Source: Candidatus Parcubacteria bacterium
GTDB lineage: Bacteria > Patescibacteriota > Minisyncoccia > Phycocordibacterales > CAIZLB01
Assembly (NCBI GenBank): GCA_039795775.1
Contig: JBDKLC010000005.1
Location: forward strand, 185,624-249,623
Length of the DNA: 64,000 bases
Direction: 5' to 3'
Part shown: positions 47,414 to 63,075 of the stretch, one piece after another
Layout of the letters: the number at the start of each line of letters is the position of its first letter
How positions within the stretch are numbered: the stretch's first letter is position 1
Position numbers and translations under genes: made by a program
The notes under the pieces: generated by a model
What the model saw: only the letters and a program-made list of their open reading frames with translations
Databases searched by the model: none
What the model was told of the DNA's origin: nothing

Positions 47414-47485
47414 GGCCCTATCGTCTAACGGTTAGGACAGAGCCTTCTCAAGGCTTAAATCGGGGTTCGATTCCCCGTGGGGTCA
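47414..47485 (+). tRNA. tRNA-Glu (anticodon CTC). No CCA is encoded.
   Basis: The sequence is ggcccta-tc-gtct-aacggtta-ggac-a-gagcc-ttCTCaa-ggctt-aaat-cgggg-ttcgatt-ccccg-tggggtc-a. The T arm and D arm are canonical, and the acceptor stem has two G-U pairs. The overall form resembles bacterial tRNA-Glu. Confidence 0.75.
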
Positions 47486-47486
47486 T

Positions 47487-47527
47487 GGTAAATAAAAAGC
47501 ACCAGACATGCTGGTGTTTTTTATTTG
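47487..47527 (+). terminator. Terminator after tRNA-Glu.
   Basis: agcaccag pairs with ctggtgtt, followed by T6. Confidence 0.55.
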
Positions 47528-47602
47528 CCACATGATCGCCGGGGGCGAGAACCTGTGACCACTTCTCCTGGACGGTGTGACAATTGAGGTATACTGTAAT
47601 GT

Positions 47603-47890
47603 ATGAAAACAAGATATACATACGGATTACTATTTTTAGTAATTCACTCGATCTTATCTCTTGGAGCAATATTGTTTGTATATGATGCTAATATTCCAAA
47701 TAGTGATTTGGGACTGATTATGTTCCCAAATATTTTTATTCCTTTGCTTTTAACTGATCAATTACCTCGTATTTTTGGATATTGGTCTAACTTATATTGG
47801 AGTGGAATCTTTTGGTTTATTATAGGTTATTTAATTGGATTAATTGTTGAAAAGAGAAGATTAAGAAAATCAAATGAACACCTCCAATAA
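47603..47890 (+). CDS. Hypothetical small membrane protein.
   Basis: The 95 aa protein has 3 TM helices and AT-rich codon usage. Confidence 0.45.
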   Translation: MKTRYTYGLLFLVIHSILSLGAILFVYDANIPNSDLGLIMFPNIFIPLLLTDQLPRIFGYWSNLYWSGIFWFIIGYLIGLIVEKRRLRKSNEHLQ

Positions 47891-49298
47891 CAATCTTGAA
47901 CAAACAAGGCAAGAAGTACAAAAGTTTTTACACGATGACATTTCAGTTTTTACTGTAAAAGGAAAAGGCGCAGTAAATAACGCTTATTATGTTGAAACAA
48001 AAAGCGGGTCTACATACATAGTGAAACAAGAACGCGAAGATAAAGAGTTTCAACCTCAGAACGATTTACTTGTAGAAGCGAATGTTATACAACAGCTTTC
48101 ATCAGTAGGTCTGACACTTTCAATACCCAAAGTTTCATTTATATCTGAGAAGCCAAAGATGTATGGCTATGAGTATATCGAAGGTGAAATGCTTCGAGGA
48201 ACATGGCCATCTCTTTCTGAAGAAGAAAAAATAAGCATATGCACTGCTTTGGGTGAATTTCATGCAGAAATTGGAAAGAAATGTACTAAAGAAATGGCTG
48301 AATCTCTGGGTATTACAATTGACCTATCTACAGGCTTACACCCAGAAGTCTCAAGAGATTATGAATTAATCCTACAAAATTCACAGGTACCAGACTCATT
48401 TAAAATTCTCGCACGACGGGCAAAAGAGATATTTGATATCACAGAGCATGATATACTCTTTCAGTTTCTTCATAATGATGCTCATCACGAGAATGTTTTA
48501 ATCAAAAATAAGCAGATCTCTGGAATCATCGACTTTGGTAATGCCGAGTATGGTGAAATTGCAAAAGAGTTTTCACGCTACATACGAGATTTCCCATTTC
48601 ATTTTCAATATATTGTCTCTGCCTACGAAAAAGCATCTGGCAATAAGCTTTCATATACGCGTCTCGTAACCAACTCTTTTTTGAGCGGTCTTATTGATAC
48701 TGTAGGAGATTATTTGAAAGGGGGAGAGGGAAGAGTGAATGCTGAAAAAGCTATGGCTAGATATAAAAAACTCATAGATACATATACGCAGACACAAAAT
48801 CCCAAACGTATTCTGATAGTCGGTGATGCTGGTAGAGGAAAAAGTACATTTGCAAAAAAACTTTCGGCCAAGCTTGGTATTCCAGCGTATGAGACAGATG
48901 ACTTTTATTGGATAAAGAAATTTTCTGTACCAGCAAACAAACAGGAGAGTATAGATGCTATTGCAAAAGTATATCTAGAAGATACGTGGATTGTAGAAGG
49001 CACTACACGACACTTGGTACAGGGAGCATTTGAAAAAGCTGATGTAATTTATAGTCTCGAATTTAAGTGGATCATCTCGCAGTATTACCGGCTTATTAAA
49101 AGATCATTTGGCAGAGATCATGAAAGCTGGAGGGGACTGTGGGTTCTTCTGGTACACGTCACACGAAAAAGATTTAAAAAAGGATACAGAGCCGAGCTCC
49201 CGTCTATTCAAGAGATGATCAAACCGTATGAGAGTAAAGTGGTACATCTTTGTTCGTTCAAAGAGATACAATCTGAATTACATAAATATAATTTGTAA
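47874..49298 (+). CDS. Fusion protein: an N-terminal APH/choline-kinase-like phosphotransferase domain and a C-terminal P-loop NTPase (adenylate-kinase/zeta-like).
   Basis: The kinase-like half carries HNDAHHENVL (Brenner motif) and IDFGNAEYG. The C-terminal half carries the Walker A LIVGDAGRGKSTFAKKL. Confidence 0.65.
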   Translation: MNTSNNNLEQTRQEVQKFLHDDISVFTVKGKGAVNNAYYVETKSGSTYIVKQEREDKEFQPQNDLLVEANVIQQLSSVGLTLSIPKVSFISEKPKMYGYEYIEGEMLRGTWPSLSEEEKISICTALGEFHAEIGKKCTKEMAESLGITIDLSTGLHPEVSRDYELILQNSQVPDSFKILARRAKEIFDITEHDILFQFLHNDAHHENVLIKNKQISGIIDFGNAEYGEIAKEFSRYIRDFPFHFQYIVSAYEKASGNKLSYTRLVTNSFLSGLIDTVGDYLKGGEGRVNAEKAMARYKKLIDTYTQTQNPKRILIVGDAGRGKSTFAKKLSAKLGIPAYETDDFYWIKKFSVPANKQESIDAIAKVYLEDTWIVEGTTRHLVQGAFEKADVIYSLEFKWIISQYYRLIKRSFGRDHESWRGLWVLLVHVTRKRFKKGYRAELPSIQEMIKPYESKVVHLCSFKEIQSELHKYNL

Positions 49299-49330
49299 TC
49301 TGATATAAAAGGTATGCTAAGCTTTGTAAT

Positions 49331-49786
49331 ATGGAATCAAAATATAACTTCAAAAGAAATAGTCCTAGCCAAATAGTAATCTATAGTGTGTTTGGAGTTT
49401 TAACGCTCATTTTAATACTTGTCTGGATGGTGTTGAGGTCTATTAACCCAGAGTTGGCTTTTGTTTCTAATATATTTGTGCCGATAATGATTTTCTTCGG
49501 AATAGCCGGATTCCTTATGCAGATCTTTGTAGTAAGCAAGAGGCAGTTTATAAAACTAACTGATACATCAGTAATGGTTTATAGGGGATTAGGAATTATT
49601 CCAAATACATTTAAATATATAGACATTAAGAGAGTTAACATCTCTGGAGAAATGCTCAAAGGTATTGATACAGGATTATATGCAGCATGGCCAATATTTT
49701 TAAACGTAGAAAATGTTCAGCAGTTTGTTCAAGATTTATCATTGAGATACAAAAGTAGCACTGGGACTGACATAGTCATATATTAA
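49331..49786 (+). CDS. Hypothetical membrane protein with a PH-like (bPH) C-terminal region.
   Basis: Two TM helices are followed by a soluble domain of about 80 aa. Confidence 0.5.
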   Translation: MESKYNFKRNSPSQIVIYSVFGVLTLILILVWMVLRSINPELAFVSNIFVPIMIFFGIAGFLMQIFVVSKRQFIKLTDTSVMVYRGLGIIPNTFKYIDIKRVNISGEMLKGIDTGLYAAWPIFLNVENVQQFVQDLSLRYKSSTGTDIVIY

Positions 49787-49869
49787 GACTGTTTAGGTAA
49801 GGAAATACCTATAATAGTTGAAGAGGGGGTTCGATTTTAGTTGGAATGAGCAAGATGTATAGCGCTAAG

Positions 49870-49955
49870 TTGACAGCTTAATTTTGACATAGAGATTCTT
49901 TATGAAAATTGACAAAGTAGCAATTTTGTCATATTATAAAATCAGCAACTGACAA
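49870..49955 (+). promoter_or_regulatory. Promoter with TGACA repeats and a palindrome upstream of the helicase gene.
   Basis: TTGACA at 49909-49914 and TATTAT at 49932-49937 are separated by 17 nt. tgacaaa pairs with tttgtca as a palindrome spanning the spacer. Additional TGACA(A/T)AG copies lie at 49871, 49885 and 49950. Confidence 0.45.
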
Positions 49956-50030
49956 AGCTCTTTAATAATCTGAAGGGCTATTTTCATTTCTCAACAATCA
50001 ATCTCAAACCAACTCAGAACATCATACATA

Positions 50031-51779
50031 GTGAAAGTAATACAACCGCGCCCATATCAGGCGATCGCTGTGAGGGCCGCACTTAAGGCTCTTCGTTCGA
50101 AGCTGAAACGTGCGTTAGTTGTTATGGCTACTGGACTCGGTAAAACGATTACTGCGGCTATGATAACAAAAGCACTTTTCGCAAAAGGGAGAATTCTCTT
50201 TTTGGTGCATAACACCTTCATCCTTGATCACGCCGTGTCTGAGTTCAAACTCATTTTCGGTGAAGACATGGATGTATCGATCTACAAGGGCGGATCTAAA
50301 ACGGCTCCTCACAAAGCACAATTCGTCTTTGCTACATGGCAGACAATGGGTATCAATCTCAATAACTGGGACACAAAGCATTTTGACCTAGTCATTGTGG
50401 ACGAGGCCCATCATACTGAAGCAATTACCTACGCTCCTACTATTCGGTATTTCCTTGCTGCCAAACTTGGCATCACGGCAACTCCTGATCGAAACGACGA
50501 TGCGGATATCCGCGAAGTATTCGGTGAGGAAGTCGTTAACTTCAGTTTGGAGGAGGCAATCGTTAATGGTTGGCTCCCACCGATTGAGTATCGACTTTGT
50601 CATGACAACAGTCTCGACAACGTGGAACTGCAAAAAGTCCTCGACGAGATTCGGACAGCAAAAAGAAGAATGTCGATTGCGGAAATTAATCGGCGTGTTT
50701 TTATTCGAAAAAAAGCGAAAGTCGTGGCAAAGACCATCATGGACGAAGGTAAGCCCGCACTTATCTTTTGTAAGGATATTAGCCACGCTAAACGCATGGC
50801 ACGTATTATTCCCAAATCTCGCGCATTTCATTCTGGAAAGGATGCAAAGCATAAAACGCAGAGGAAGATATGGGATCGTAATCTAAAGACACTTAGTGAC
50901 TTTCGCAGTGGTAAGTTGCGTTATGTTACTGCCGTCGATGCATTCAACGAGGGTGTCGATGTCCCAGCAATTCATCTCATTGCTCTGTTACGTCAACATG
51001 GCGTGATTACCAGATGGAAGCAGCAGATTGGACGTGGTGCTCGACCCGATGACGGAAAGACAAAGTTGGTGGTTATGGATTTCGTAAGTAATCTAGAGCA
51101 TCTGCAATTTCTTCTATCTTTCAAAAAGAAGATCGCCCAAATGGAGCGTAAGAAGTATCCGAAAGGTCCAAAGGTTTCAAAATCCATTGAGATAAGCGGA
51201 GACCCATTTACGTTCACATTCACACAAGAAATTGTGAATCTCATGGAGGTACTGGAATCCTGTTCAAAAGATTTCTACGCGACGTGGGAGGAAGCATCTG
51301 AAGTTGTCAAAAAACTTGGAATTACAGGAACCTACAGTTACAGACAAAAAAGAAGTTTTGATTCGAAGCTTCATTCTGCACCTGATCAGTTTTATGCCAA
51401 TTTCCCCGGCTGGAAAACGTTTTTTGGAAGAGTTGAGTATTACTCTACGTGGGAAGACGCATCAATAGCGGTCAAGGCTCTTGGAATACGTTCATGGGAA
51501 GAATACAAAAGTCTTCACAAAAACGATCCACGGCTGCCTCCAGACTTGTATGGTGCCTATCCAGCACTCCCGAACTTTAAAAAGTTGTGCGGGTTAGAAG
51601 AAAAAAACCTATACGTGACAGTCCAAGAAGCATCAACAGCGGCTATAGCTTTAGGGATCAAAACGAGCACTCAGTATTGGAAAGACTCGCACTTAGACGG
51701 GCGCTTGCCAAAAAATCCAAGAAACAAATACAAGAAAAAGTTCCCAGGGTGGGATATGTTTTGGGGAAAGAAGAAGTAG
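50031..51779 (+). CDS. SF2 DEAH-box helicase (ResIII/type III restriction-like) with three C-terminal tandem repeats of about 50 aa.
   Basis: The helicase motifs are ATGLGKT (motif I), VIVDEAHH (II), ITATP (III) and QQIGRGAR (VI). Residues 420-580 contain three repeats of the form WEEAS-x-VKKLGI ... P-x-FPGW-x-FFG. Confidence 0.8.
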   Translation: MKVIQPRPYQAIAVRAALKALRSKLKRALVVMATGLGKTITAAMITKALFAKGRILFLVHNTFILDHAVSEFKLIFGEDMDVSIYKGGSKTAPHKAQFVFATWQTMGINLNNWDTKHFDLVIVDEAHHTEAITYAPTIRYFLAAKLGITATPDRNDDADIREVFGEEVVNFSLEEAIVNGWLPPIEYRLCHDNSLDNVELQKVLDEIRTAKRRMSIAEINRRVFIRKKAKVVAKTIMDEGKPALIFCKDISHAKRMARIIPKSRAFHSGKDAKHKTQRKIWDRNLKTLSDFRSGKLRYVTAVDAFNEGVDVPAIHLIALLRQHGVITRWKQQIGRGARPDDGKTKLVVMDFVSNLEHLQFLLSFKKKIAQMERKKYPKGPKVSKSIEISGDPFTFTFTQEIVNLMEVLESCSKDFYATWEEASEVVKKLGITGTYSYRQKRSFDSKLHSAPDQFYANFPGWKTFFGRVEYYSTWEDASIAVKALGIRSWEEYKSLHKNDPRLPPDLYGAYPALPNFKKLCGLEEKNLYVTVQEASTAAIALGIKTSTQYWKDSHLDGRLPKNPRNKYKKKFPGWDMFWGKKK

Positions 51780-51867
51780 TCGTCATGAAAGTGACTTCAG
51801 ATAGAGGGGGCACGGCGTGTCCTTATAGTGGTATTCTCCACAGGTAGAGTTATCCAGAAGCTCAAAA

Positions 51868-51905
51868 TCATCCCCCGCACCAGCAATGGTGCCGGGGATG
51901 TTTTT
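51868..51905 (+). terminator. Rho-independent terminator after the helicase gene.
   Basis: A 14 bp stem with one mismatch pairs catcccccgcacca with tggtgccggggatg. The loop is gcaa, followed by T6. Confidence 0.65.
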
Positions 51906-51926
51906 TATACTATAATGTACACAACA

Positions 51927-52382
51927 ATGAAAAAAAACATTGCCTCAATTGCAATACTCCTCATCGCATGTGTCGGTATCTTTTTTATAATTAAAAGCGT
52001 GTACGTGAGCAAGGCTGAACCAACACCTCCCGACATTCCGTTTACTGATACTCAAGGTAGAACCGTTATGACACCGTCAGGTCGTTCTGCTGTTTTGACT
52101 ATATCACCATGTGAATCAACATCAATTCAAGCTTGCTTTGGATCAGGAATGACTTTTATGGCGAGTTCAACTGGTGTAGATATATATAGTCTTGTCAGTA
52201 CCGAATCACTGACACGCTATGGTGCGGCTTTGTCTGACACATCGAGCACAGCAAACACACCTGACTCTTCTGATCCTCAAAGATTGTTTGAAGTTACGTT
52301 CGACACAAAAGATCAACCTGCAACAGGAGACGATATACTATTTTTCAACAAGCTCGTTTCTAATTTATTCACACGTACATAA
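51927..52382 (+). CDS. Secreted or membrane-anchored protein carrying a novel Cys-containing domain.
   Basis: The start is at MKKNIASIAILLIACVGIFF. The C-terminal region reads ISPCESTSIQACFGSGMTFMASSTGVDIYSLVSTESLTRYG. It is homologous to the C-terminus of the 53928-54830 protein. Confidence 0.5.
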   Translation: MKKNIASIAILLIACVGIFFIIKSVYVSKAEPTPPDIPFTDTQGRTVMTPSGRSAVLTISPCESTSIQACFGSGMTFMASSTGVDIYSLVSTESLTRYGAALSDTSSTANTPDSSDPQRLFEVTFDTKDQPATGDDILFFNKLVSNLFTRT

Positions 52383-52383
52383 T

Positions 52384-52811
52384 ATGGCTGAACTTAAAAC
52401 AACAAAAACAAAAGCGAGTGTAATGCATTTATCAAATCTCTCTCAGATGAACAACGTCGGAAAGATGCACAACTGTTACTTACTATTTTCAAGAAAGCGA
52501 CTGGTCTGAAACCTGTGATGTGGGGGACAAGTATTATTGGATTCGGTTCGTATCATTACAAATCAGAAAAGTCGTCGCAAGAAGGAGATTGGATGCTTAC
52601 TGCGTTTTCTCCACGTAAGGCTAATATGACGGTGTACATTATGTCAGGTGCCAAACAGTATCCAGAATTATTGAAAAAGCTTGGAAAGCATAAAGTATCA
52701 AGCGGTTCTTGCATTTATATACGTACAGTTGATGATATTCATATTCCTACTCTGAGCGCTCTTATCAAACAGTCTGTAAAAGATATGAAAGTACGATATA
52801 ACGTGAAATAG
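52384..52811 (+). pseudogene. DUF1801 (YdhG-like) family gene disrupted by a -1 frameshift.
   Basis: Frame 1 reads MAELKTTKTKASV and then runs into a stop at 52509. The adjacent frame, from about 52422, encodes NAFIKSLSDEQRRKDAQLLLTIFKKATGLKPVMWGTSIIGFGSYHY and continues to YPELLKKLGKHKVSSGSCIYI. The two frames can be joined by adding one A in gtaatg at about 52420-52425. Confidence 0.55.
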
Positions 52812-52994
52812 TTCCGGTTATAAGTGTTATATTGAGCGATGTAACATGAATCGACGAAGTATGAAGGCTCAGGTGACAAGTCGTTGACTTTTTGTATATT
52901 TATTGTAATGTTATCTCAGCAAACATTTTGTTCTCCACAACAATTCAACTGAATTCACACACAAACCCACACACCACACAACCAGTATCATACA

Positions 52995-53357
52995 ATGCAA
53001 ACAGCCAGATTAACTACCGAATCGTTTGCTCGCTACATACGCGGGCAAGTTCACTTCAGCAGTCCAGAACTTGGGCTTAGCTTTGAATGTCGCGCCGTCG
53101 TCTCAAGCGTCAATCTCGATGATAGCGGCATCCTGACTATTCAATTTGAGGTCGCTGCGTCTCGTCCTACAGACCGGAAAGATGAACAGCCCTGGGCACG
53201 CATCTCTCGCATGAGCTTCGTGACCAGCATCACAGGCTACAATGTGAGTGAAGACGTTGAGCGTTCGCTTACGCTTCAATCCGACAGCAGGAACACGCAC
53301 ATGATCTTCCGCATGCCCGAGCATGACGATGATCTCGACTTCAACACCATCCACTGA
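52995..53357 (+). CDS. Hypothetical protein (GC-rich insertion).
   Basis: The 120 aa protein has no motif. It is followed by a hairpin with a T-run at 53385-53440. Confidence 0.4.
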   Translation: MQTARLTTESFARYIRGQVHFSSPELGLSFECRAVVSSVNLDDSGILTIQFEVAASRPTDRKDEQPWARISRMSFVTSITGYNVSEDVERSLTLQSDSRNTHMIFRMPEHDDDLDFNTIH

Positions 53358-53496
53358 CCAGTGATGACTACCGACCAGGGTTCTAGCCCCACAAGAAATG
53401 ACTCACCCGATTCATTTCAGGTGGGGCTTTTCTTTTTATCGCGAAGTATATGTTGTGTATCTATAAGTTTTGAATGTAGGTTATACTATATGTACT

Positions 53497-53913
53497 ATGA
53501 AAGATAGATCGTCTTGGTTACATTGGTTTTTGGGAAGTATTCTTATATACACTGTGGTCGTCGGACTCACTGTTCTAATGGAGCTTTCTTGTGAAGGAGA
53601 AACAATGTGTGGAATTCTTACATTTGGTGCAGCAGTTTTCCTCCTCCCAATTATTCCTGTTGCTACTTTTGTGGGTTGGTACAAAGGGAGAAAAGACCCC
53701 AACGCCGCTTCTTTGAAGTTATTTTGGCTTAGAGGTGCAATATTTGGTCTTACTGCGTGGATTGTTATTTTCGCGATTTCAGAGTCTTTCTACTTCTATG
53801 GTAATTTTCCAGTCATCTATAAGTTACTATACTTTGGTTATGATGAAATTGGTGGTTTGCTGTATGTGGTTGCCGGTGGGGTGTGCGGTTTTGTTTATCA
53901 GAAATTTCAGTAA
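53497..53913 (+). CDS. Hypothetical membrane protein.
   Basis: It starts at MKDRSSWLHWFLGSILIY and has 4 TM helices. Confidence 0.45.
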   Translation: MKDRSSWLHWFLGSILIYTVVVGLTVLMELSCEGETMCGILTFGAAVFLLPIIPVATFVGWYKGRKDPNAASLKLFWLRGAIFGLTAWIVIFAISESFYFYGNFPVIYKLLYFGYDEIGGLLYVVAGGVCGFVYQKFQ

Positions 53914-53927
53914 ACTTTTAACATAGT

Positions 53928-54830
53928 ATGAAAGAACTCATCACTAAAATTCTCAGAAAGCCTCTCGATATAATGGGATTTAATTTTCGAAACGAACCAA
54001 CACTCACAACGATTCTCATTTCATATGCTATCTTGATAGCCATTTTTGTTGTGATGGCACTTCTATTATTTTCATACATACCATCTCCTTATATATACCA
54101 GATATATCTTCGTAATATCCTCGCCTTAATATTTGGAGCAATTTCTATTGTCGGTCTTGGTTATTCTTTAAAAAATATCAAGTCTACTTCAAATGGTGGT
54201 TATTTAGTTGCTCTGTGTCTTATTGTGGGAGTAGTTTGTTGTATAGTAGTTAGTAGTTTTATATATGATAGCTTTGGTTTTAAAAGAGAAATAATTGAAA
54301 CAAAACTCACAACACATTATGGAGCAAAAACTAGAAATGTTGTTTGTAATGGGAGTGTACGAGCTGAAATAGATAATAAGCTCTACGGTTTTGGATGTTT
54401 AGATTCTAATGTCGAACAAATTTTACCTCACAACTTAAATACAGACAGTACCTATAGATTGGTCATCTTGCCGCATTCACACGACATAATAAGTGCCGAA
54501 AAAATAGAAACCAAACAACATGTGCTGAAATTGCCATCAGGTCTTTCTGCCAAAATGGAACTATCTTCTTGTGAGACATCTGCTCTGCAAACTTGTTTTG
54601 GTTCGGGAATGGAGTTCGTAGCAAGCTCAACAAAGCTTGATGTATACAGTTTAGTAAGTACAGAGTCTGCAACTCGGTATGGAGTGGTAATTGATCCTAC
54701 GATTGATTCTCCAGCTGCATATGTGGTGGTTATTAGTACTGAAAGTGGCACTGGCACTTTTTCAGATCGAGATTTTGTATTCTTAGATACAATAGTACGC
54801 AATATAGATAAGTTGGGCTTAATTAAATAA
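53928..54830 (+). CDS. Membrane protein with a C-terminal Cys-containing domain, paralogous to 51927-52382.
   Basis: An N-terminal multi-TM region is followed by LSSCETSALQTCFGSGMEFVASSTKLDVYSLVSTESATRYG. Confidence 0.5.
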   Translation: MKELITKILRKPLDIMGFNFRNEPTLTTILISYAILIAIFVVMALLLFSYIPSPYIYQIYLRNILALIFGAISIVGLGYSLKNIKSTSNGGYLVALCLIVGVVCCIVVSSFIYDSFGFKREIIETKLTTHYGAKTRNVVCNGSVRAEIDNKLYGFGCLDSNVEQILPHNLNTDSTYRLVILPHSHDIISAEKIETKQHVLKLPSGLSAKMELSSCETSALQTCFGSGMEFVASSTKLDVYSLVSTESATRYGVVIDPTIDSPAAYVVVISTESGTGTFSDRDFVFLDTIVRNIDKLGLIK

Positions 54831-54855
54831 CAGAAAAAATTGATATAATACTCAT

Positions 54856-55446
54856 ATGACTATCCCAGAAATTCTCGGACTTTTATCCGGTATCTTCCTC
54901 ATTGCAGGATATATTCCGTACATGTATGAAGTACTCAAGGGTACTGACATTCCAAATAGAGCGAGTTGGTTTATTTGGTCACTATCTACCATAACTATTC
55001 TTATTGGAGTACGAGAGACAGGTACAAATGAAGCTATCTGGGTGCCTATCGCCGATGCTATCGGTTGTTTCATTATCTTCATATTATCTATCCGAAAGGG
55101 AACAGGAGGCTGGAATCGCACAGACAAAATCTCTCTTGCTTTTGCAGCCGTTAGTCTCGCGCTCTGGGCATTTACAGGAAATATACTTGTCGCACTTATA
55201 ACAAATCTTGCTATTTATACAAGTGGCTATATTTCTACCATCAAAAAATCAATTGATGATCCAAAGAGTGAAAGTTTTGTGGCGTGGACAATGTTCTTCA
55301 TGGGTGTGGTTCTCAATCTTGTGACAGTTATTATTGGCACAGACACTGGCTTCGCGGTGTGGCTCTATCCAATCGTGCTTGTGGCAACCGTTGGCACGTT
55401 GTATGCAGTGCTCTTCAGACGGTTTAAAAATGAGATTCCGGCTTAG
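54856..55446 (+). CDS. Hypothetical polytopic membrane protein, paralog of 14991-15560.
   Basis: The 196 aa protein has a TM topology and a conserved KKSIDDPKSE-type segment shared with the 14991-15560 product. Confidence 0.55.
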   Translation: MTIPEILGLLSGIFLIAGYIPYMYEVLKGTDIPNRASWFIWSLSTITILIGVRETGTNEAIWVPIADAIGCFIIFILSIRKGTGGWNRTDKISLAFAAVSLALWAFTGNILVALITNLAIYTSGYISTIKKSIDDPKSESFVAWTMFFMGVVLNLVTVIIGTDTGFAVWLYPIVLVATVGTLYAVLFRRFKNEIPA

Positions 55447-55511
55447 CTGAATAAATAACCAGCAAAGCACAATTAGCATATCTGCCCACACAGCCAGCCC
55501 CAATACTTATA

Positions 55512-56176: not shown

Positions 56177-56256
56177 TTCTCTAATTAATGCATTAATTAT
56201 GCTGTTCTTGTCTTGAATGTATTATGCATGCGATTTATTGTTGTATAATTATATAT

Positions 56257-57441
56257 ATGAAAAAACTCATCATTCCAATTATTATTCTTGCGATTGCAGC
56301 GTTTGCTTTTGTGAAATTTAATACTGGTGCCCCACGCATTACTCCACAGACTATAGATGTATCAGGCACTACAAGCACTCAGGGAGCTTCATCTTCTGTT
56401 GCATCAAACGAAGTTGCTATTGTCACGCCTCTTTCTGCTGATGTGAATGTCAAAACAACTACACTTGCTCCTTTTAGAACAATAACAGAAGCAGCATCGA
56501 CAACTATCGGCACAGTGGTGAAGACATCTTCATCTGGACGAGCTATTGTCGAAGCATCATTTAGTCATCCTACCGCCCTCGACTATAGTTCTGAACTTGT
56601 TATCAAAGACAGTCGAGCTGAACAAAAGAGAACATCTATCGAACTTACGACAGGCGGTCTGTGGGCGCGAGCTAAGAAGCTTTTTGAAAAAGGAGAATTT
56701 TATGAAATTAAAACAAGTAACGCTGTCGCCGTGGTGCGAGGCACATCGTTTGGTGTGACATACAAGGCAAACAAAACGACAGTTATTGTTACGCAGGGTG
56801 AAGTTTCAGCTTTTAATAGAGACCCTAAAACAGGTAATGCAGCTTCATCAACACAGATAGTAGTTCTCGCAGGATACAAACTAGAAATAACAGGAACAAG
56901 CAAGGGAGTACTTACAAGAATTTCATCAGAGGACATGCGAAGTGATTGGTACAAATACAACACGTCAGCAGATGGTACAGGTGCCAGCACTGGCAAGGGC
57001 ACAAGTGCGGCTGGTTCAACATCTGGCACACAATCTGGAACACAAGGCGTGAGCACAACGGGTACTACAGCACCTGCTGGCTCAGTACCAGCGTCAGGAG
57101 GTTCAAGTGTTCCTACAACCGTTCCTGGAGCAGGTAGTACTTCATATGGAGGTACAGGAGCGACATCTGTAAAGGTTTCATCGGTGAGTCCTCGAAGTGT
57201 TATGGCTGGTGATAGTCGTACATATGTAGTGGTGAATGGTGTTGGCCTCAAACAAATAGAAGAAGTATCAGCAGGCGAATCTGTCATGATCGATCTTATG
57301 GTTGTAAATGATAATAAGTTGCAATTCCATGTCGATCCACAACTTCCAGTTGGAACATATGATCTCATCTTGATTGCATCAGATGGTTCTGACGTCACTC
57401 TTAACGCCGCACTTACTGTTCAATACGGATCAGTACGATAG
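56257..57441 (+). CDS. FecR-domain protein with a Ser/Thr/Gly-rich linker and a C-terminal Ig-like domain.
   Basis: It starts at MKKLIIPIIILAIAAFAFV, a signal or anchor. The FecR-like beta region begins ELTTGGLWARAK and ends NAVAVVRGTSFGV. A low-complexity stretch begins GTSAAGSTSGTQSGTQGVSTTG. Confidence 0.6.
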   Translation: MKKLIIPIIILAIAAFAFVKFNTGAPRITPQTIDVSGTTSTQGASSSVASNEVAIVTPLSADVNVKTTTLAPFRTITEAASTTIGTVVKTSSSGRAIVEASFSHPTALDYSSELVIKDSRAEQKRTSIELTTGGLWARAKKLFEKGEFYEIKTSNAVAVVRGTSFGVTYKANKTTVIVTQGEVSAFNRDPKTGNAASSTQIVVLAGYKLEITGTSKGVLTRISSEDMRSDWYKYNTSADGTGASTGKGTSAAGSTSGTQSGTQGVSTTGTTAPAGSVPASGGSSVPTTVPGAGSTSYGGTGATSVKVSSVSPRSVMAGDSRTYVVVNGVGLKQIEEVSAGESVMIDLMVVNDNKLQFHVDPQLPVGTYDLILIASDGSDVTLNAALTVQYGSVR

Positions 57442-57453
57442 CCGGTAAAAAGT

Positions 57454-59367
57454 ATGAAAAAATACTCAAAAAAATATTGGATTATTGCGGTAGTACTTAT
57501 CGGAGTATTCCTGTTGAGTTTTTGTTCATATTATTTTCATTTATTTGAAACTCTTCAAAATAAATTCACTGATCGTTTATTCTTGAAACGTCAGCCTTCG
57601 CAACATATTGTGATAGTTGCAATTGATGAGCAAAGTCTTGCGCAAATAGGGAAGTGGCCCTGGAGTCGTGATGTGTTTGCAAAAGTGATCCCGCAATTCG
57701 ACGCTTCTAAGGCTGTTGGATTTGATATTAATTTTTCCGAATCTTCATCTCTCTCTAATAATGGTGTAGACGCAGACAAAATACTTGCCCAAGCATTGGC
57801 TAGTTCAAATTCGGAAATATTCCTACCAATTCAACTGAGAGCTGACGGTGTAGTAGAAGTCGCTCCGCTTTCTCTCTTGGCTGAACATGCAAAGCTTGGG
57901 TATGTAAATGTTCTTGTAGATTCAGACAATACTGTTCGCTCGCTCATTCACTCAAGATCGGGAGCTACAAGCTTTTCATCTCTTTTCGCACCATCGCAAG
58001 CTATCACTTCTGAGCCTCAAATCATCAATTACACCGGACCGGCAAAAACTATTCTCACAGTTTCATTCGTAGACGTGTTGAATAAGAAAATACCACCAAG
58101 TATTTTTAAAGACGCAAACGTCCTCATTGGTGTAACAGCAAATGATTTGCACGATGTTCTCAATACTCCCTTTGGTCTCATGCCTGGAGTAGAAGTTCAT
58201 GCAAATGCTCTTGAGACTTTAGCATCAGGCTCGGCGATTAAACCGGCATCCAAAGAAACAGCAGCAGCTAGTCTTGCTATTGTCATTCTCATAGGTGCAG
58301 CTATTGTCTTCTTATTCAAGAGATTTATATATATTATTGCAACGCTCATAGCACTTTTTGTTGGAATTATTGCTGCTACGTTTGTCTCATTTCAGTTGGG
58401 CATAATTTTACCAGCTGCATATATGCTCTTGGCGTTCTTACTAGGCTCTGTAAGTACACTCATATATCAATATGTTGTTGAATCAAAAGAAAAGCGATTT
58501 ATCCAAAAGACATTTCAATATTATTTAATGCCAGAAGTGATCAAGGAGATTATGGAGAATCCAAAAAAACTCTCACTTGGTGGGGAAAAGAAAAAACTTA
58601 CAATTCTTTTCTCAGACATTCGAGGATTCACAGCACTTTCAGAAAAACTGACAGCCGAAGAACTCGTGCATATTATCAACCAGTACTTTACTCGTATGAG
58701 TGATAGCATTATGGAGCATAGAGGGTTGGTAGATAAATACATTGGTGATGCAATTATGGCTTTTTGGGGAGCACCAATCGCCAATGAATCTCAGGCTGCT
58801 GACGCATGTCTCACTGCTCTCGCTATGTCTGCACAGCTCAAGAGCCTCAATGCTGCGTGGAAAGCCGCAGGAGTACCTGAAATAGGTATTGGTATCGGAC
58901 TCAACACAGGAGAGGTAATTGTAGGCAATATGGGAAGTGAAAAGCGGTTCAACTATACGATTATGGGAGATGAAGTGAATTTTGGCTCGCGACTTGAAGG
59001 TCTCAACAAAATGTACGGTACAGAATGTATTTTGAGTGAAGAAACAAAAAAGGCTGTCGAAGGTGATAGTCGTTTCGTTATTCGTGAACTTGATACTGTA
59101 ATGGTAAAAGGCAAGAAAGAACCAAAGAACATTTACGAGCTCATCACAGCTGAAGTGACTGATCCGTTTAAACAAGTGTTACCACTGTTTGCAGAAGGTT
59201 TAGATCTGTACAAGAAAGGGAATTTTAAGCAGGCTCTAGAAACCTTTAAAAAGGTCCTCGATACATATCCGGATGGACCAAGTCAGACATTTATGGAACG
59301 ATGTAACTATCTGATTGAACATCCACCTGAAGTATGGAACGGTGTATATGAATTTAAGACAAAATAA
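57454..59367 (+). CDS. CHASE2 sensor-containing class III adenylate/guanylate cyclase.
   Basis: An N-terminal TM helix is followed by an extracytoplasmic domain of about 300 aa, three TM helices and the cyclase core. The core contains LTILFSDIRGFTALSE, DKYIGDAIMAFWGAP and NLGSRLEG. A helical C-terminus follows. Confidence 0.8.
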   Translation: MKKYSKKYWIIAVVLIGVFLLSFCSYYFHLFETLQNKFTDRLFLKRQPSQHIVIVAIDEQSLAQIGKWPWSRDVFAKVIPQFDASKAVGFDINFSESSSLSNNGVDADKILAQALASSNSEIFLPIQLRADGVVEVAPLSLLAEHAKLGYVNVLVDSDNTVRSLIHSRSGATSFSSLFAPSQAITSEPQIINYTGPAKTILTVSFVDVLNKKIPPSIFKDANVLIGVTANDLHDVLNTPFGLMPGVEVHANALETLASGSAIKPASKETAAASLAIVILIGAAIVFLFKRFIYIIATLIALFVGIIAATFVSFQLGIILPAAYMLLAFLLGSVSTLIYQYVVESKEKRFIQKTFQYYLMPEVIKEIMENPKKLSLGGEKKKLTILFSDIRGFTALSEKLTAEELVHIINQYFTRMSDSIMEHRGLVDKYIGDAIMAFWGAPIANESQAADACLTALAMSAQLKSLNAAWKAAGVPEIGIGIGLNTGEVIVGNMGSEKRFNYTIMGDEVNFGSRLEGLNKMYGTECILSEETKKAVEGDSRFVIRELDTVMVKGKKEPKNIYELITAEVTDPFKQVLPLFAEGLDLYKKGNFKQALETFKKVLDTYPDGPSQTFMERCNYLIEHPPEVWNGVYEFKTK

Positions 59368-59369
59368 AT

Positions 59370-59651
59370 ATGAATAAAATTTGGTTTAAAGCAAAGCGAT
59401 ACGGTTGGGGATGGACTCCTTCGACATGGGAAGGTTGGCTTTCTCTTGTTATTTTTATTGTGCTTCAGTTTGCAAATGCGAGACGCCTCGAAGTTGTATC
59501 TGAGTCTCCAAGCAATACTGTAGTTATATTTATTATTGAAACAATTGTACTTGTAGCTGCACTCATTGCCGTTTGTTATTGGAAAGGGGAGAAGCCATCA
59601 TGGCGCTGGGGTGATCGAGATGCAGGAAAAGATGATTTGAATAATACATAA
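59370..59651 (+). CDS. Hypothetical small membrane protein.
   Basis: The 93 aa protein has 2 TM helices. It is 2 nt downstream of the cyclase stop. Confidence 0.45.
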   Translation: MNKIWFKAKRYGWGWTPSTWEGWLSLVIFIVLQFANARRLEVVSESPSNTVVIFIIETIVLVAALIAVCYWKGEKPSWRWGDRDAGKDDLNNT

Positions 59652-59655
59652 TACA

Positions 59656-60147
59656 ATGCGCTTCAAAAGCTTCAATAGTCTTCGAGCTATTATATATAAG
59701 CTCGGCTATCCTATTGCAAAGTCGGTCTGGTTTTTTACACGACCAACTACTCAGGGAGTAAAATGTTTGATAATTAAAAAAGGTGAACCCGCGACTTCGG
59801 GGAGTGATCAGCTGCTTCTTATTCGTCACACGTATGGAAAGGGTACATGGAACCTACCTGGTGGGGGAATAAAAAGAGATGAAGATCACGTAGAGGCAAT
59901 TAAACGTGAGGTGTTTGAAGAATTAGGAATCTGTCTTGAAGACACAAAGATACGTGCGGTTGGGTCCTTTTTTACAACAAGAGAATTTAAGAAAGATACA
60001 GTGTTTTGTTTTGCTGCAGAGGTGACAAATGAGTATTTTAAAATTGATGAGCATGAAATAGCTGAAGCAAAATGGTTTTCTCTGGATACTATACCTGATC
60101 ACACTTCAACAATAGTAGGAAAGATTCGGAAACTTTCTAGTGTTTGA
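59656..60147 (+). CDS. NUDIX hydrolase.
   Basis: The Nudix box is GGGIKRDEDHVEAIKREVFEELGI. Confidence 0.75.
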   Translation: MRFKSFNSLRAIIYKLGYPIAKSVWFFTRPTTQGVKCLIIKKGEPATSGSDQLLLIRHTYGKGTWNLPGGGIKRDEDHVEAIKREVFEELGICLEDTKIRAVGSFFTTREFKKDTVFCFAAEVTNEYFKIDEHEIAEAKWFSLDTIPDHTSTIVGKIRKLSSV

Positions 60148-62619: not shown

Positions 62620-63075
62620 CTATGCAAACAATCCTTCTACCACAGCTTTCACATCAGCACCGTCAGCTTTGCCTTTAAGGTCTTTCATAAGAGCACTCAT
62701 GAATTTTCCTGTTTCAGATTTGTCTGTAATACCAAGCTCAGCTTTCTTTGCTTCTGCAATTTTCTGAATTTCTTCTCGAGACATCATCTGAGGGAGATAC
62801 GCTTCGAGTATAGAAAGTTCTTTCTTTTCATCTTCTGCGAGTTCTGGTCGGCCACCGGCAATGAATTGATCGATAGAATCTTTTCGCTGCTTAGCTGATC
62901 GTCGAATAACAGCGAGTGCTTCGTCGTCAGTGAGGGTATCCTGAGGAGTTCGGTTTGTCGCTACGAGCTCATTCATGAAAGCTGTAGTGAGACCTCGTAC
63001 TACAGTCAATTTGATAGCATCCTTTGCAAGCATTGCTTCCTTAATCTGGCCTTTAATCTGGTCGTGTAGAGACAT
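62620..63075 (-). CDS. yqeY: GatB/YqeY domain protein.
   Basis: MSLHDQIKGQIKEAMLAKD is followed by RGLTTAFMNELV, which is the YqeY fold signature. Confidence 0.8.
   Translation of the reverse strand: MSLHDQIKGQIKEAMLAKDAIKLTVVRGLTTAFMNELVATNRTPQDTLTDDEALAVIRRSAKQRKDSIDQFIAGGRPELAEDEKKELSILEAYLPQMMSREEIQKIAEAKKAELGITDKSETGKFMSALMKDLKGKADGADVKAVVEGLFA

What the first reader, a model, noticed from the sequence alone, without database searches (positions are those of the whole stretch)
47486..55450. tRNA-Glu-adjacent accessory island carrying a kinase/P-loop fusion, a PH-like membrane protein and an SF2 DEAH helicase: a candidate defence or stress module
Immediately after tRNA-Glu the dcw cluster stops. 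It lacks the downstream mur and fts genes normally found after ftsI. A block of poorly characterised genes follows. The first three are overlapping and AT-rich: a small TM protein, an APH-like phosphotransferase fused to a Walker-A NTPase, and a PH-like membrane protein. Next comes a separately promoted ResIII/DEAH helicase with unusual C-terminal repeats. After it lie secreted and membrane proteins sharing a novel Cys domain, a frameshifted DUF1801 gene and a GC-rich ORF. The tRNA-proximal location, the mosaic composition and the helicase-plus-kinase content are features often seen in anti-phage defence islands. The gene combination does not match a named system that I can identify.
Basis: inference. 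Interest (0 to 1): 0.6.

Follow-up and report, generated by a model that had tools for sequence, protein, structure and literature searches.

The report
Variable chromosome stretch, not a defence module
The genes after tRNA-Glu in this ultra-small (Parcubacteria) bacterium are real and mostly as described, but they are an unlinked mix of a conserved lineage kinase, a widespread stand-alone DNA motor protein and orphan membrane proteins, with no sign of an anti-phage system.

Summary
The defence-module reading is not supported.

- **Locus frame.** The window is a Candidatus Parcubacteria chromosome. A dcw cluster ending at ftsI, followed by tRNA-Glu(CUC) and then an APH-family kinase, is also the arrangement in the three related contigs found.
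- **Kinase.** It sits in its ancestral position. It is 71% identical to those relatives, more conserved than FtsI. About 200 homologues exist, nearly all about 300 aa and standalone. Only this organism carries the in-frame fusion to an adenylate-kinase-like P-loop domain.
- **Helicase.** It belongs to a large Patescibacteria family (over 1,700 hits) with a ResIII/Helicase_C motor and 3–8 INT_rpt repeats. It has no nuclease domain. It is a stand-alone gene, mostly among housekeeping genes, with no recurrent partner.
- **Other genes.** The PH-like protein, the Cys-domain pair and the remaining small ORFs have few or no detectable relatives and never co-occur with the kinase or helicase.
- **Mobility and defence.** PADLOC matches only the helicase core. 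There is no integrase and no att-type repeat.
- **What is right.** The content between the conserved anchors does differ among relatives, and one relative carries a SIR2-STAND gene there.

Ordinary overall. The uncharacterised helicase family is the only lead worth following.

The parts
47414..47485 (+). tRNA-Glu (anticodon CTC). Conserved left anchor of the variable interval.
   Evidence: ARAGORN and Rfam tRNA at 59.6 bits. The same tRNA follows ftsI(-epimerase) in L003, L004 and L006.
47500..47525 (+). Terminator-like hairpin after the tRNA: CACCAG-ACATG-CTGGTG followed by a T run.
   Evidence: Sequence read. The scan lists the same stem on the - strand.
47603..47890 (+). 95-aa orphan protein with about 2-3 hydrophobic segments. 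It overlaps the kinase start by 17 nt. GC 0.28.
   Evidence: ORF. Hydropathy. No family hit. No homologue in the other loci held at the time.
47874..48773 (+). APH-family (eukaryotic-like kinase fold) small-molecule kinase domain, aa 1-300 of the 474-aa ORF.
   Evidence: PF01636 E 4.5e-18. About 200 homologues at 56-73% identity, nearly all about 300 aa, in Patescibacteria. K51, E68, H200-N-D202...N207 and D220 are invariant. Nearest solved structures are APH(2'') (E 1.5e-8) and Mph.
48774..49298 (+). In-frame C-terminal P-loop domain of NMP-kinase type, aa 301-474 of the same ORF. The fusion is seen only in this organism.
   Evidence: NCBIfam PRK08118 'DNA topology modulation protein' E 9.4e-16, 58 bits against a cutoff of 215. 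AAA_18 and adenylate kinase are weak hits. Other long APH homologues carry different extensions. The same ORF appears in the JGI and Logan contigs, and as a fragment on a third, short contig.
49331..49786 (+). 151-aa membrane protein with an N-terminal hydrophobic region of about two helices and a possible bacterial PH-like C-terminal domain.
   Evidence: 14 cluster representatives among 1.84 billion proteins. 3 of 14 weakly match bPH_4. Homologues lie on archaeal-looking contigs with no kinase or helicase nearby.
49909..49937 (+). Promoter-like site TTGACA-17-TATTAT upstream of the helicase.
   Evidence: 11 of 12 consensus matches. This is a consensus match only.
50031..51779 (+). 582-aa SF2 DEAH helicase/translocase. 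The motor core is aa 1-355. Three INT_rpt repeats occupy aa ~415-582 (51273-51776). There is no nuclease domain.
   Evidence: Pfam ResIII, Helicase_C and INT_rpt. 1,789 homologues, and the top 120 share the same architecture. Motifs are conserved in alignment A1. AF2 pLDDT is 82. The core is nearest to SauUSI, HsdR, RadD and XPB. The repeat model (pLDDT 93) has no solved structural relative.
51828..52382 (+). 184-aa protein (probable start M34) with one N-terminal hydrophobic helix and the shared Cys-containing domain.
   Evidence: No family hit.
52384..52811 (+). DUF1801 gene interrupted by a frameshift after about 13 codons.
   Evidence: Two-frame translation. PF08818 E 3.9e-8 on the 3' part. 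The same truncated call appears in both assemblies.
52995..53357 (+). GC-rich orphan ORF of 120 aa (GC 0.52, GC3 0.59). Coding status uncertain.
   Evidence: No protein family. No Rfam match. RNA fold z-score -1.9.
53470..53913 (+). Orphan membrane protein of 111-147 aa, depending on the start codon.
   Evidence: No family hit.
53928..54830 (+). 300-aa membrane protein with about 3 hydrophobic segments and the shared Cys-containing domain.
   Evidence: No relative found in the metagenome scan.
54856..55446 (+). 196-aa polytopic membrane protein, orphan.
   Evidence: Only a weak hit to phrog_2642, E 0.003.
59656..60147 (+). NUDIX hydrolase. Right-hand syntenic marker shared with relative L003.
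   Evidence: PF00293 E 3e-19. 34% identity to the NUDIX gene of L003.
62620..63075 (-). YqeY. Conserved right anchor.
   Evidence: PF09424 E 1.6e-39. 66% identity to L003 and 60% to L173.

Best explanation
The stretch is not one functional module. It is the flexible part of a Candidatus Parcubacteria chromosome, lying between conserved anchors: ftsI, tRNA-Glu(CUC) and the APH kinase on the left, NUDIX and YqeY on the right. It holds three independent kinds of gene.

1. **A lineage-conserved APH-fold kinase in its ancestral place.** Here it has gained, by in-frame fusion, a second kinase-type domain (adenylate-kinase/FlaR-like P-loop). It is flanked by two orphan small membrane proteins. I infer an active ATP-dependent small-molecule O-phosphotransferase doing a conserved job for these reduced cells: salvage or modification of a metabolite, or detoxification of an antibiotic-like compound. 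The fused P-loop domain may add a second phosphoryl-transfer or nucleotide-handling step.

2. **A separately transcribed SF2 DEAH motor with three INT_rpt helical repeats.** It is one member of a very large Patescibacteria-wide family of stand-alone genes. I infer an ATP-driven double-strand DNA translocase or remodeller. The repeat array would tether it to DNA or to a partner protein. Its role would be in DNA repair, recombination or transcription-linked processes, not in restriction, because it has no nuclease domain and no fixed partner.

3. **Lineage-specific envelope proteins, a decayed DUF1801 gene and orphan ORFs.**

Shown: gene structures, domain content, conservation, synteny, and the absence of linkage between the genes. 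Inferred: the substrates and cellular roles.
For: **Synteny**
- Relatives L003/L004 and L006/L007 have mraZ/rsmH/ftsL/ftsI, an epimerase, tRNA-Glu(ctc), 0-5.6 kb of differing genes, then the APH kinase.
- The window's NUDIX and YqeY match those downstream in L003.

**Kinase**
- The kinase is 71% identical to both relatives. FtsI is 64% and 56%, RsmH 46% and FtsL 43%. This suggests stronger purifying selection than on core cell-division genes.
- About 200 mostly standalone homologues have unrelated neighbours.
- All catalytic residues are invariant.
- The fusion is unique to this organism.

**Helicase**
- 1,789 homologues. The top 120 share the motor plus INT_rpt architecture across Parcubacteria, Nomura-, Kaiser-, Staskawicz-, Yanofsky- and Uhrbacteria, many on contigs of 0.4-1.1 Mb.
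- Family members start at the same N-terminus, so no domain is missing here.
- Neighbour census over 21 loci: no family recurs in more than 3 loci.
- 150 neighbouring ORFs from 17 of those loci are mainly RNA polymerase, EF-Tu/G, SecDF, RecG, sigma-70, PolA, RecA, ClpB and aaRS.
- Immediate neighbours include Mfd, UvrA, UDG/Fpg and RecA.
- There are no close viral relatives: 25-34% identity, core only.

**No linkage, mobility or defence signal**
- tblastn of the island proteins against the 176 other loci then held finds only the expected kinase, helicase and PH151 homologues, never two together.
- PADLOC gives no full-length match to any defence model.
- There is no integrase and no att-like repeat.
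Against: - No relative closer than about 70% protein identity was available. Recent gain or loss at this locus cannot be resolved.
- The interval does vary. It carries defence-type or mobile cargo in relatives: SIR2-STAND in L006; MTase, serine recombinase and a helicase-INT_rpt gene within 7 kb of tRNA-Glu in L173.
- The helicase core is most similar to the motors of restriction enzymes: SauUSI (E 5.6e-67) and EcoAI-type HsdR.
- Some genomes carry two paralogues. A few loci have DNA methyltransferases or recombinases nearby.
- Neither the kinase nor the helicase reaches the curated cutoff of any named housekeeping family.
Confidence: 0.68

Rival explanations
1. The helicase-INT_rpt protein is a stand-alone defence or anti-mobile-element factor. 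It would be a nuclease-less relative of Type IV/Type I restriction motors. It recognises foreign DNA through the repeat array, then translocates to displace or expose that DNA to a nuclease encoded elsewhere. The tRNA-Glu/YqeY interval would be a lineage hotspot where such cargo accumulates.
For: - The core is nearest to SauUSI and HsdR.
- In L173 a homologue lies with a Type II-like MTase and a serine recombinase, 6.7 kb from tRNA-Glu.
- MTases lie within 5 kb in about 3 of 21 loci and resolvases in about 3.
- Paralogue pairs occur in L017 and L018.
- L006 has a SIR2-STAND gene in the same hotspot.
Against: - There is no nuclease or effector domain and no conserved partner.
- Most homologues sit among core genes.
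- The architecture is uniform and 45-52% identical across many Patescibacteria classes, which is unlike typical patchy defence genes.
- All PADLOC hits cover only the generic motor.
Confidence: 0.12
2. TM95, the APH::P-loop kinase and PH151 form a membrane-associated stress or resistance operon. The kinase would inactivate an aminoglycoside- or macrolide-like antibiotic, for example one made by a host or neighbour. The two membrane proteins would assist sensing or localisation.
For: - The nearest solved structures are APH(2'') and macrolide 2'-phosphotransferases.
- There are weak NCBIfam hits to Mph and APH(2'')-IIa.
- The three genes are tightly packed, co-oriented and share low GC.
- A terminator-like hairpin precedes them, and a promoter-like gap follows.
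Against: - Similarity to resistance kinases is remote: E about 1e-8, and 17-22 bits against cutoffs of 500-625.
- TM95 has no homologue at all.
- PH151 homologues never sit beside a kinase.
- The kinase's neighbours differ in every relative.
- Operon status is inferred from spacing only.
Confidence: 0.13
3. The whole 47.5-59.6 kb stretch is a classical mobile genomic island integrated at tRNA-Glu.
For: - It lies next to a tRNA.
- Its GC varies gene by gene.
- It holds many orphan genes.
- Its length differs from the same interval in L003.
Against: - There is no integrase, recombinase or transposase in the interval.
- There is no direct repeat of the tRNA 3' end. The longest repeats are 14-24 nt and look like chance matches.
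- The first large gene after the tRNA is a conserved resident at that position in relatives.
- GC heterogeneity is window-wide.
Confidence: 0.05

Closest known systems
SauUSI-type ATP-dependent Type IV restriction endonuclease (PDB 7CLG; PADLOC mREase_IV)
   Same: It is the best sequence and fold match for the helicase motor. Profile E is 5.6e-67 over aa 2-350. Foldseek E is 1.2e-18. PADLOC E is 6e-39.
   Different: SauUSI is about 950 aa. It has an N-terminal nuclease and a C-terminal modified-DNA recognition domain flanking the motor (PMC3141236; bioRxiv 10.1101/2025.10.16.682607). The window protein starts at the motor and ends in INT_rpt repeats. Matches cover only positions about 220-568 of the SauUSI chain or model.
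Type I restriction R subunit, EcoAI family (NCBIfam NF046051; PDB 3H1T)
   Same: The motor domains are similar: E 8.6e-50 and E 1.2e-41.
   Different: The score is 170 bits against a cutoff of 550. There is no nuclease domain, and no HsdM or HsdS genes lie nearby.
RadD (YejH) and XPB DNA-repair helicases
   Same: The SF2 motor fold and size are similar. Some homologues neighbour repair genes such as Mfd, UvrA, UDG/Fpg, RecA and RecG.
   Different: The RadD score is 107 bits against a cutoff of 720, and the XPB score is 41 against 610. The C-terminal region is an INT_rpt array, not the accessory domains of RadD or XPB.
APH(2'') aminoglycoside and Mph macrolide phosphotransferases (Pfam APH, PF01636)
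   Same: The kinase fold and the full catalytic motif set are shared.
   Different: Similarity is only remote, and the protein falls below all resistance-family cutoffs. It forms its own highly conserved Patescibacteria subfamily. Here it is fused to a P-loop kinase-like domain.
FlaR / 'DNA topology modulation protein' P-loop kinases (NCBIfam PRK08118; adenylate-kinase fold)
   Same: It shares the Walker A motif and the overall pattern of a roughly 170-aa NMP-kinase-like domain, E 9.4e-16.
   Different: It is well below the family cutoff (58 bits against 215). It occurs as a C-terminal fusion, not as a free protein.

Membership tests
Known anti-phage defence system (PADLOC-DB v2) | Full-length match of at least one protein to a system model, with the system's required partner genes adjacent | tested here: not met
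   Only the helicase core matches (mREase_IV, REase_I, PbeA), over the motor region alone. The kinase gives weak hits, E >= 2e-4. The other eight proteins give no hit or only a weak one.
tRNA-integrated mobile genomic island | Integrase or recombinase gene next to the tRNA | tested here: not met
   No such domain is found in any ORF from 47.6 to 61.9 kb.
tRNA-integrated mobile genomic island | Direct repeat of the tRNA 3' end at the far boundary | tested here: not met
   No repeat involves the tRNA. The longest repeat families are 14-24 nt elsewhere in the region.
tRNA-integrated mobile genomic island | Presence/absence polymorphism among relatives | tested here: inconclusive
   Content between the anchors differs in L003, L006 and L173. 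The relatives are only 56-71% identical in protein, and the kinase next to the tRNA is conserved.
SauUSI-type Type IV restriction enzyme | N-terminal nuclease domain | tested here: not met
   The protein and all 19 aligned homologues begin at helicase motif Q/I. The matches start at position about 220 of SauUSI.
SauUSI-type Type IV restriction enzyme | C-terminal modified-base recognition domain | tested here: not met
   The C-terminus is INT_rpt x3, which has no solved structural relative.
Type I restriction R subunit | Score above the family cutoff, with adjacent hsdM/hsdS | tested here: not met
   170 bits against 550 for NF046051, and 32 against 285 for TIGR00348. No MTase or S gene lies in the window region.
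RadD DNA-repair helicase | Score above the NCBIfam equivalog cutoff | tested here: not met
   106.9 bits against 720.
SF2 helicase (ResIII + Helicase_C) | Pfam gathering scores met, with conserved Walker A, DEAH, TAT and QxxGRxxR motifs | tested here: met
   ResIII 109.5 against 22.5, and Helicase_C 37.6 against 23.5. GLGKT, DE(A/S)H, TATP and QQxGRG are invariant or nearly so.
INT_rpt (PF14882) repeat proteins | Pfam gathering score met | tested here: met
   43.4-48.9 bits against 26.5. Three repeats are visible in alignments A1 and A3.
APH phosphotransferase family (PF01636) | Gathering score met, with the catalytic HxDxxxxN and DFG-type motifs and the ATP-binding Lys | tested here: met
   66.3 bits against 23.2. 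K51, H200/D202/N207 and D220 are invariant in 19 sequences.
Antibiotic resistance kinases APH(2'')/Mph | NCBIfam resistance-model cutoff | tested here: not met
   17-22 bits against 500-625.
FlaR-type 'DNA topology modulation' P-loop kinase | NCBIfam equivalog cutoff | tested here: not met
   58.3 bits against 215. A Walker A motif (GDAGRGKS) is present.
Bacterial PH domain membrane proteins (bPH) | Match to a bPH profile, or a PH fold | tested here: inconclusive
   The window protein itself has no bPH hit. 3 of 14 family members hit bPH_4 at E >= 0.004, and the STM3941 hit has E 6.7e-4. No structure was predicted.

The most novel reading that the evidence does not exclude
The helicase-INT_rpt family would be a Patescibacteria-wide, nuclease-less offshoot of restriction-enzyme motors. 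It would act as a new kind of single-gene barrier to phages or mobile DNA, or as a chromosome remodeller specific to these reduced cells. The tRNA-Glu/YqeY interval would be a conserved hotspot where such cargo is exchanged: SIR2-STAND in one relative, and MTase, recombinase and helicase in another.
Probability: 0.12. Interest if true: 0.55.

Novelty: new member of a known kind. Interest (0 to 1): 0.2.

Why it matters
As a defence island it does not hold up, so it should not go forward as a candidate new immune system. Two by-products have modest value.

1. A very large, uniformly built and apparently unstudied family of helicase plus INT_rpt proteins exists across Patescibacteria. The literature search found no functional work on it. 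Its repeat unit has no solved structural relative.
2. An APH-fold kinase is more conserved than FtsI between the related genomes compared here. That points to an unrecognised core function in organisms that depend on salvage.

Either could be followed up biochemically. Neither is surprising enough to change current views.

Tried and rejected
- **Defence HMMs.** PADLOC on all ten island proteins and on four downstream proteins gave only generic motor or cyclase-domain hits.
- **Phage origin.** PHROGs, IMG/VR and the INPHARED collection gave only 25-34% identity to the helicase core. For the kinase there was one weak P-loop hit.
- **Att sites.** No tRNA-derived repeat was found.
- **Hidden RNA gene under the GC-rich orf120.** No Rfam match at gathering score or at E <= 1, and the fold z-score is only -1.9.
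- **Conserved partner of the helicase.** All-against-all clustering of 382 ORFs from 21 loci found none in more than 3 loci.
- **Conserved partner of PH151.** Its relatives lie on archaeal-looking contigs with unrelated neighbours.
- **Relatives of the Cys-domain protein in JGI metagenomes.** None was confirmed.
- **Fusion as a family trait.** Other long APH homologues carry unrelated N-terminal extensions or a second APH domain.
- **Pycsar reading of the downstream CHASE2 cyclase.** Only the generic cyclase domain matches. It is paired with a FecR-domain protein, and no recognisable effector is present.

Full report
**What is there**

The window is part of a 118-kb JGI metagenome contig. The same sequence occurs on a Logan contig, and the helicase and PH-like proteins recur at 100% identity in an NCBI 'Candidatus Parcubacteria' assembly whose longest contig carrying them is 509 kb.

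tRNA-Glu(ctc) lies at 47414-47485. It follows mraZ, rsmH, an ftsL-like gene and ftsI. A hairpin plus T-run follows the tRNA. The ORFs after it are all on the + strand:

- **TM95, 47603-47890.** 95 aa with about 2-3 hydrophobic segments.
- **Kinase fusion, 47874-49298.** 474 aa. It overlaps TM95 by 17 nt.
- **PH151, 49331-49786.** 151 aa.
- **A 244-nt gap.** It contains a TTGACA-17-TATTAT site.
- **Helicase, 50031-51779.** 582 aa.
- **Remaining ORFs:**
  - a 184-aa and a 300-aa protein that share a 65-aa Cys-containing segment (54% identity, E 7e-22);
  - a DUF1801 gene frameshifted after 13 codons;
  - a GC-rich 120-aa ORF (GC 0.52);
  - two further membrane proteins.

Only the first two genes overlap. 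The helicase repeats are the known Pfam INT_rpt unit. GC heterogeneity is a property of the whole window: 500-bp windows range from 0.31 to 0.56.

**The kinase**

- **Domains.** Residues 1-300 match Pfam APH (66 bits against a cutoff of 23). Residues 301-474 form a Walker-A domain. Its best match is NCBIfam PRK08118, 'DNA topology modulation protein', an adenylate-kinase-fold family (E 9.4e-16, but 58 bits against a cutoff of 215).
- **Distribution.** The APH part has about 200 homologues at 56-73% identity. Nearly all are about 300 aa, and the sources that name them label them Parcubacteria or Patescibacteria.
- **Active site.** In 19 aligned sequences the ATP-binding Lys, the HxDxxxxN catalytic loop and the metal-binding Asp are invariant. 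I conclude it is an active kinase.
- **Nearest structures.** These are APH(2'') (E 1.5e-8) and macrolide phosphotransferases. The protein is far below the resistance-family cutoffs.
- **The fusion.** Other unusually long homologues carry unrelated extensions. The fusion to the P-loop domain is therefore specific to this organism. It is real, because the ORF is identical in the JGI and Logan contigs and recurs as a fragment on a third, short contig.

**Synteny**

| Contig | Arrangement after ftsI |
|---|---|
| L003/L004 | epimerase, tRNA-Glu(ctc), two genes, APH, two genes, NUDIX, one small gene, YqeY, then ribonucleotide reductase |
| L006/L007 | epimerase, tRNA-Glu(ctc), a 1038-aa SIR2-STAND protein and three other genes, APH, then other genes and ribonucleotide reductase |
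| Window | tRNA-Glu(ctc), TM95, APH fusion, about 10.3 kb of other genes, NUDIX (59656-60147), YqeY (62620-63075, minus strand) |

The SIR2-STAND protein of L006 matches PADLOC ThsA-type SIR2 at E 3.7e-18. The window's YqeY is 66% identical to that of L003.

Three conclusions follow. The dcw stub ending at ftsI is a lineage trait. The kinase sits in its ancestral position. Only the material between the anchors varies.

The kinase is 71% identical to both relatives. FtsI is 64% and 56%, RsmH 46% and FtsL 43%. A gene evolving more slowly than FtsI is unlikely to be island cargo or a defence gene.

**The helicase**

- **Architecture.** Pfam finds ResIII, Helicase_C and INT_rpt.
- **Family size.** There are 1,789 homologues at E <= 1e-3. 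The top 120 all share the architecture, with 3-8 repeats, at 36-52% identity. They span many Patescibacteria lineages, often on contigs of 0.4-1.1 Mb.
- **Completeness.** All members start at the motor, and all SF2 motifs are conserved. There is no nuclease domain.
- **Nearest relatives of the motor.** By sequence and by fold these are SauUSI (PDB 7CLG), an EcoAI-type HsdR fragment, RadD and XPB.
- **Viral relatives.** These are distant: 25-34% identity, core only.

**Linkage tests**

- tblastn of the island proteins against the 176 other loci held at that point found no case of two island genes together.
- In 21 Patescibacteria helicase loci (382 ORFs), no neighbour family occurs in more than 3 loci.
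- 150 ORFs within 5 kb of the helicase in 17 of those loci are mainly RNA polymerase subunits, EF-Tu/G, SecDF, RecG, sigma-70, PolA, RecA, ClpB and aminoacyl-tRNA synthetases. Methyltransferases occur three times and resolvases twice.
- Individual contexts include dprA-topA | helicase | mfd, helicase | UDG-Fpg, recA | helicase, helicase | uvrA, and helicase-MTase...serine recombinase.
- PH151 belongs to a family of only 14 cluster representatives among 1.84 billion proteins. Two members that could be placed lie on archaeal-looking contigs with unrelated neighbours.
- TM95, the Cys-domain proteins and the other small ORFs have no detectable relatives.

**Defence and mobility tests**

PADLOC matches only the helicase motor, plus weak P-loop or kinase-lobe similarities. 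No integrase or transposase is present. No repeat of the tRNA 3' end was found.

**Interpretation**

The best reading (confidence about 0.68) is a flexible chromosomal interval holding unrelated genes:

- a conserved lineage kinase that has recently acquired a second kinase-type domain;
- a member of a widespread stand-alone DNA-motor family, probably acting in DNA repair, recombination or transcription-linked remodelling;
- lineage-specific envelope proteins;
- a decaying gene and orphan ORFs.

The substrates and roles are inferred, not shown.

The rivals are:

| Rival | Confidence |
|---|---|
| Helicase as a nuclease-less defence factor in a hotspot | 0.12 |
| The three-gene block as an antibiotic or stress operon | 0.13 |
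| A classical tRNA-integrated island | 0.05 |

The hotspot idea keeps some support. Relatives carry a SIR2-STAND gene (L006) and an MTase-recombinase-helicase cluster (L173, 6.7 kb from tRNA-Glu) in the same general interval. Genomic islands and defence-gene transfer are reported for Patescibacteria (PMC12455944).

**Limits**

- No relative closer than about 70% protein identity exists in the databases searched.
- Operon structure rests on spacing and consensus motifs only.

**Verdict**

Novelty is low, since these are new members of known protein kinds. The uncharacterised helicase-INT_rpt family is the only item of some wider interest.

Noticed in passing
L006:4705-7821 (GCA_013565595.1; same gene in L007): A 1038-aa protein with a SIR2 domain (PADLOC ThsA-like, E 3.7e-18), a STAND NTPase and a weak cold-shock-domain hit. 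It sits between tRNA-Glu(ctc) and the conserved APH kinase. That slot is empty in the window.
   Followed up: partly
L173:8001-16912 (GCA_001757125.1): A helicase-INT_rpt homologue (48% identity) lies co-oriented with a Type II-like N6/N4 methyltransferase, an HTH protein and a serine recombinase. It is 6.7 kb from tRNA-Glu(ctc), next to NUDIX and YqeY. This is the same general region as in the window, but rearranged.
   Followed up: partly
L017:9980-15298 and L018:4706-12049: Two helicase-INT_rpt paralogues lie within 10 kb of each other in two Patescibacteria genomes. The family is therefore not strictly single-copy.
   Followed up: no
L177:6001-6447 and L178:6001-6477: Homologues of the 151-aa PH-like membrane protein lie on contigs with archaeal markers (MCM with intein, eIF-1A, eIF-2B and RIO1 on L177; TrmB and Sua5 on L178). 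This hints that a tiny gene family is shared between ultra-small bacteria and archaea.
   Followed up: partly
window 56224-59651: A FecR-domain membrane protein is followed by a CHASE2 sensor fused to a class III nucleotide cyclase. The cyclase domain hits the PADLOC Pycsar cyclase model at E 7.6e-32, which is generic to the domain. A 93-aa hydrophobic ORF starts 3 nt after the cyclase stop codon. This looks like an ordinary signalling pair, but the small ORF is unexplained.
   Followed up: partly
window 52995-53357: A GC-rich patch (GC 0.52, GC3 0.59) carries a 120-aa ORF with no homologue and an 83-aa ORF on the opposite strand. There is no Rfam match and only weak excess RNA structure (z -1.9). 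Its nature is unresolved.
   Followed up: yes
window 52384-52811: The DUF1801 gene has its first 13 codons in a different frame from the rest. The truncated gene call is identical in two independent assemblies. It is a likely pseudogene, not a sequencing error.
   Followed up: yes
L015:845-10003, L020:53-11851, L026:133-12145: In 3 of 21 loci the helicase-INT_rpt gene lies beside or within 3 kb of rpoB-rpoC. This could be coincidence or shared ancestry of those genomes. It was not tested.
   Followed up: no
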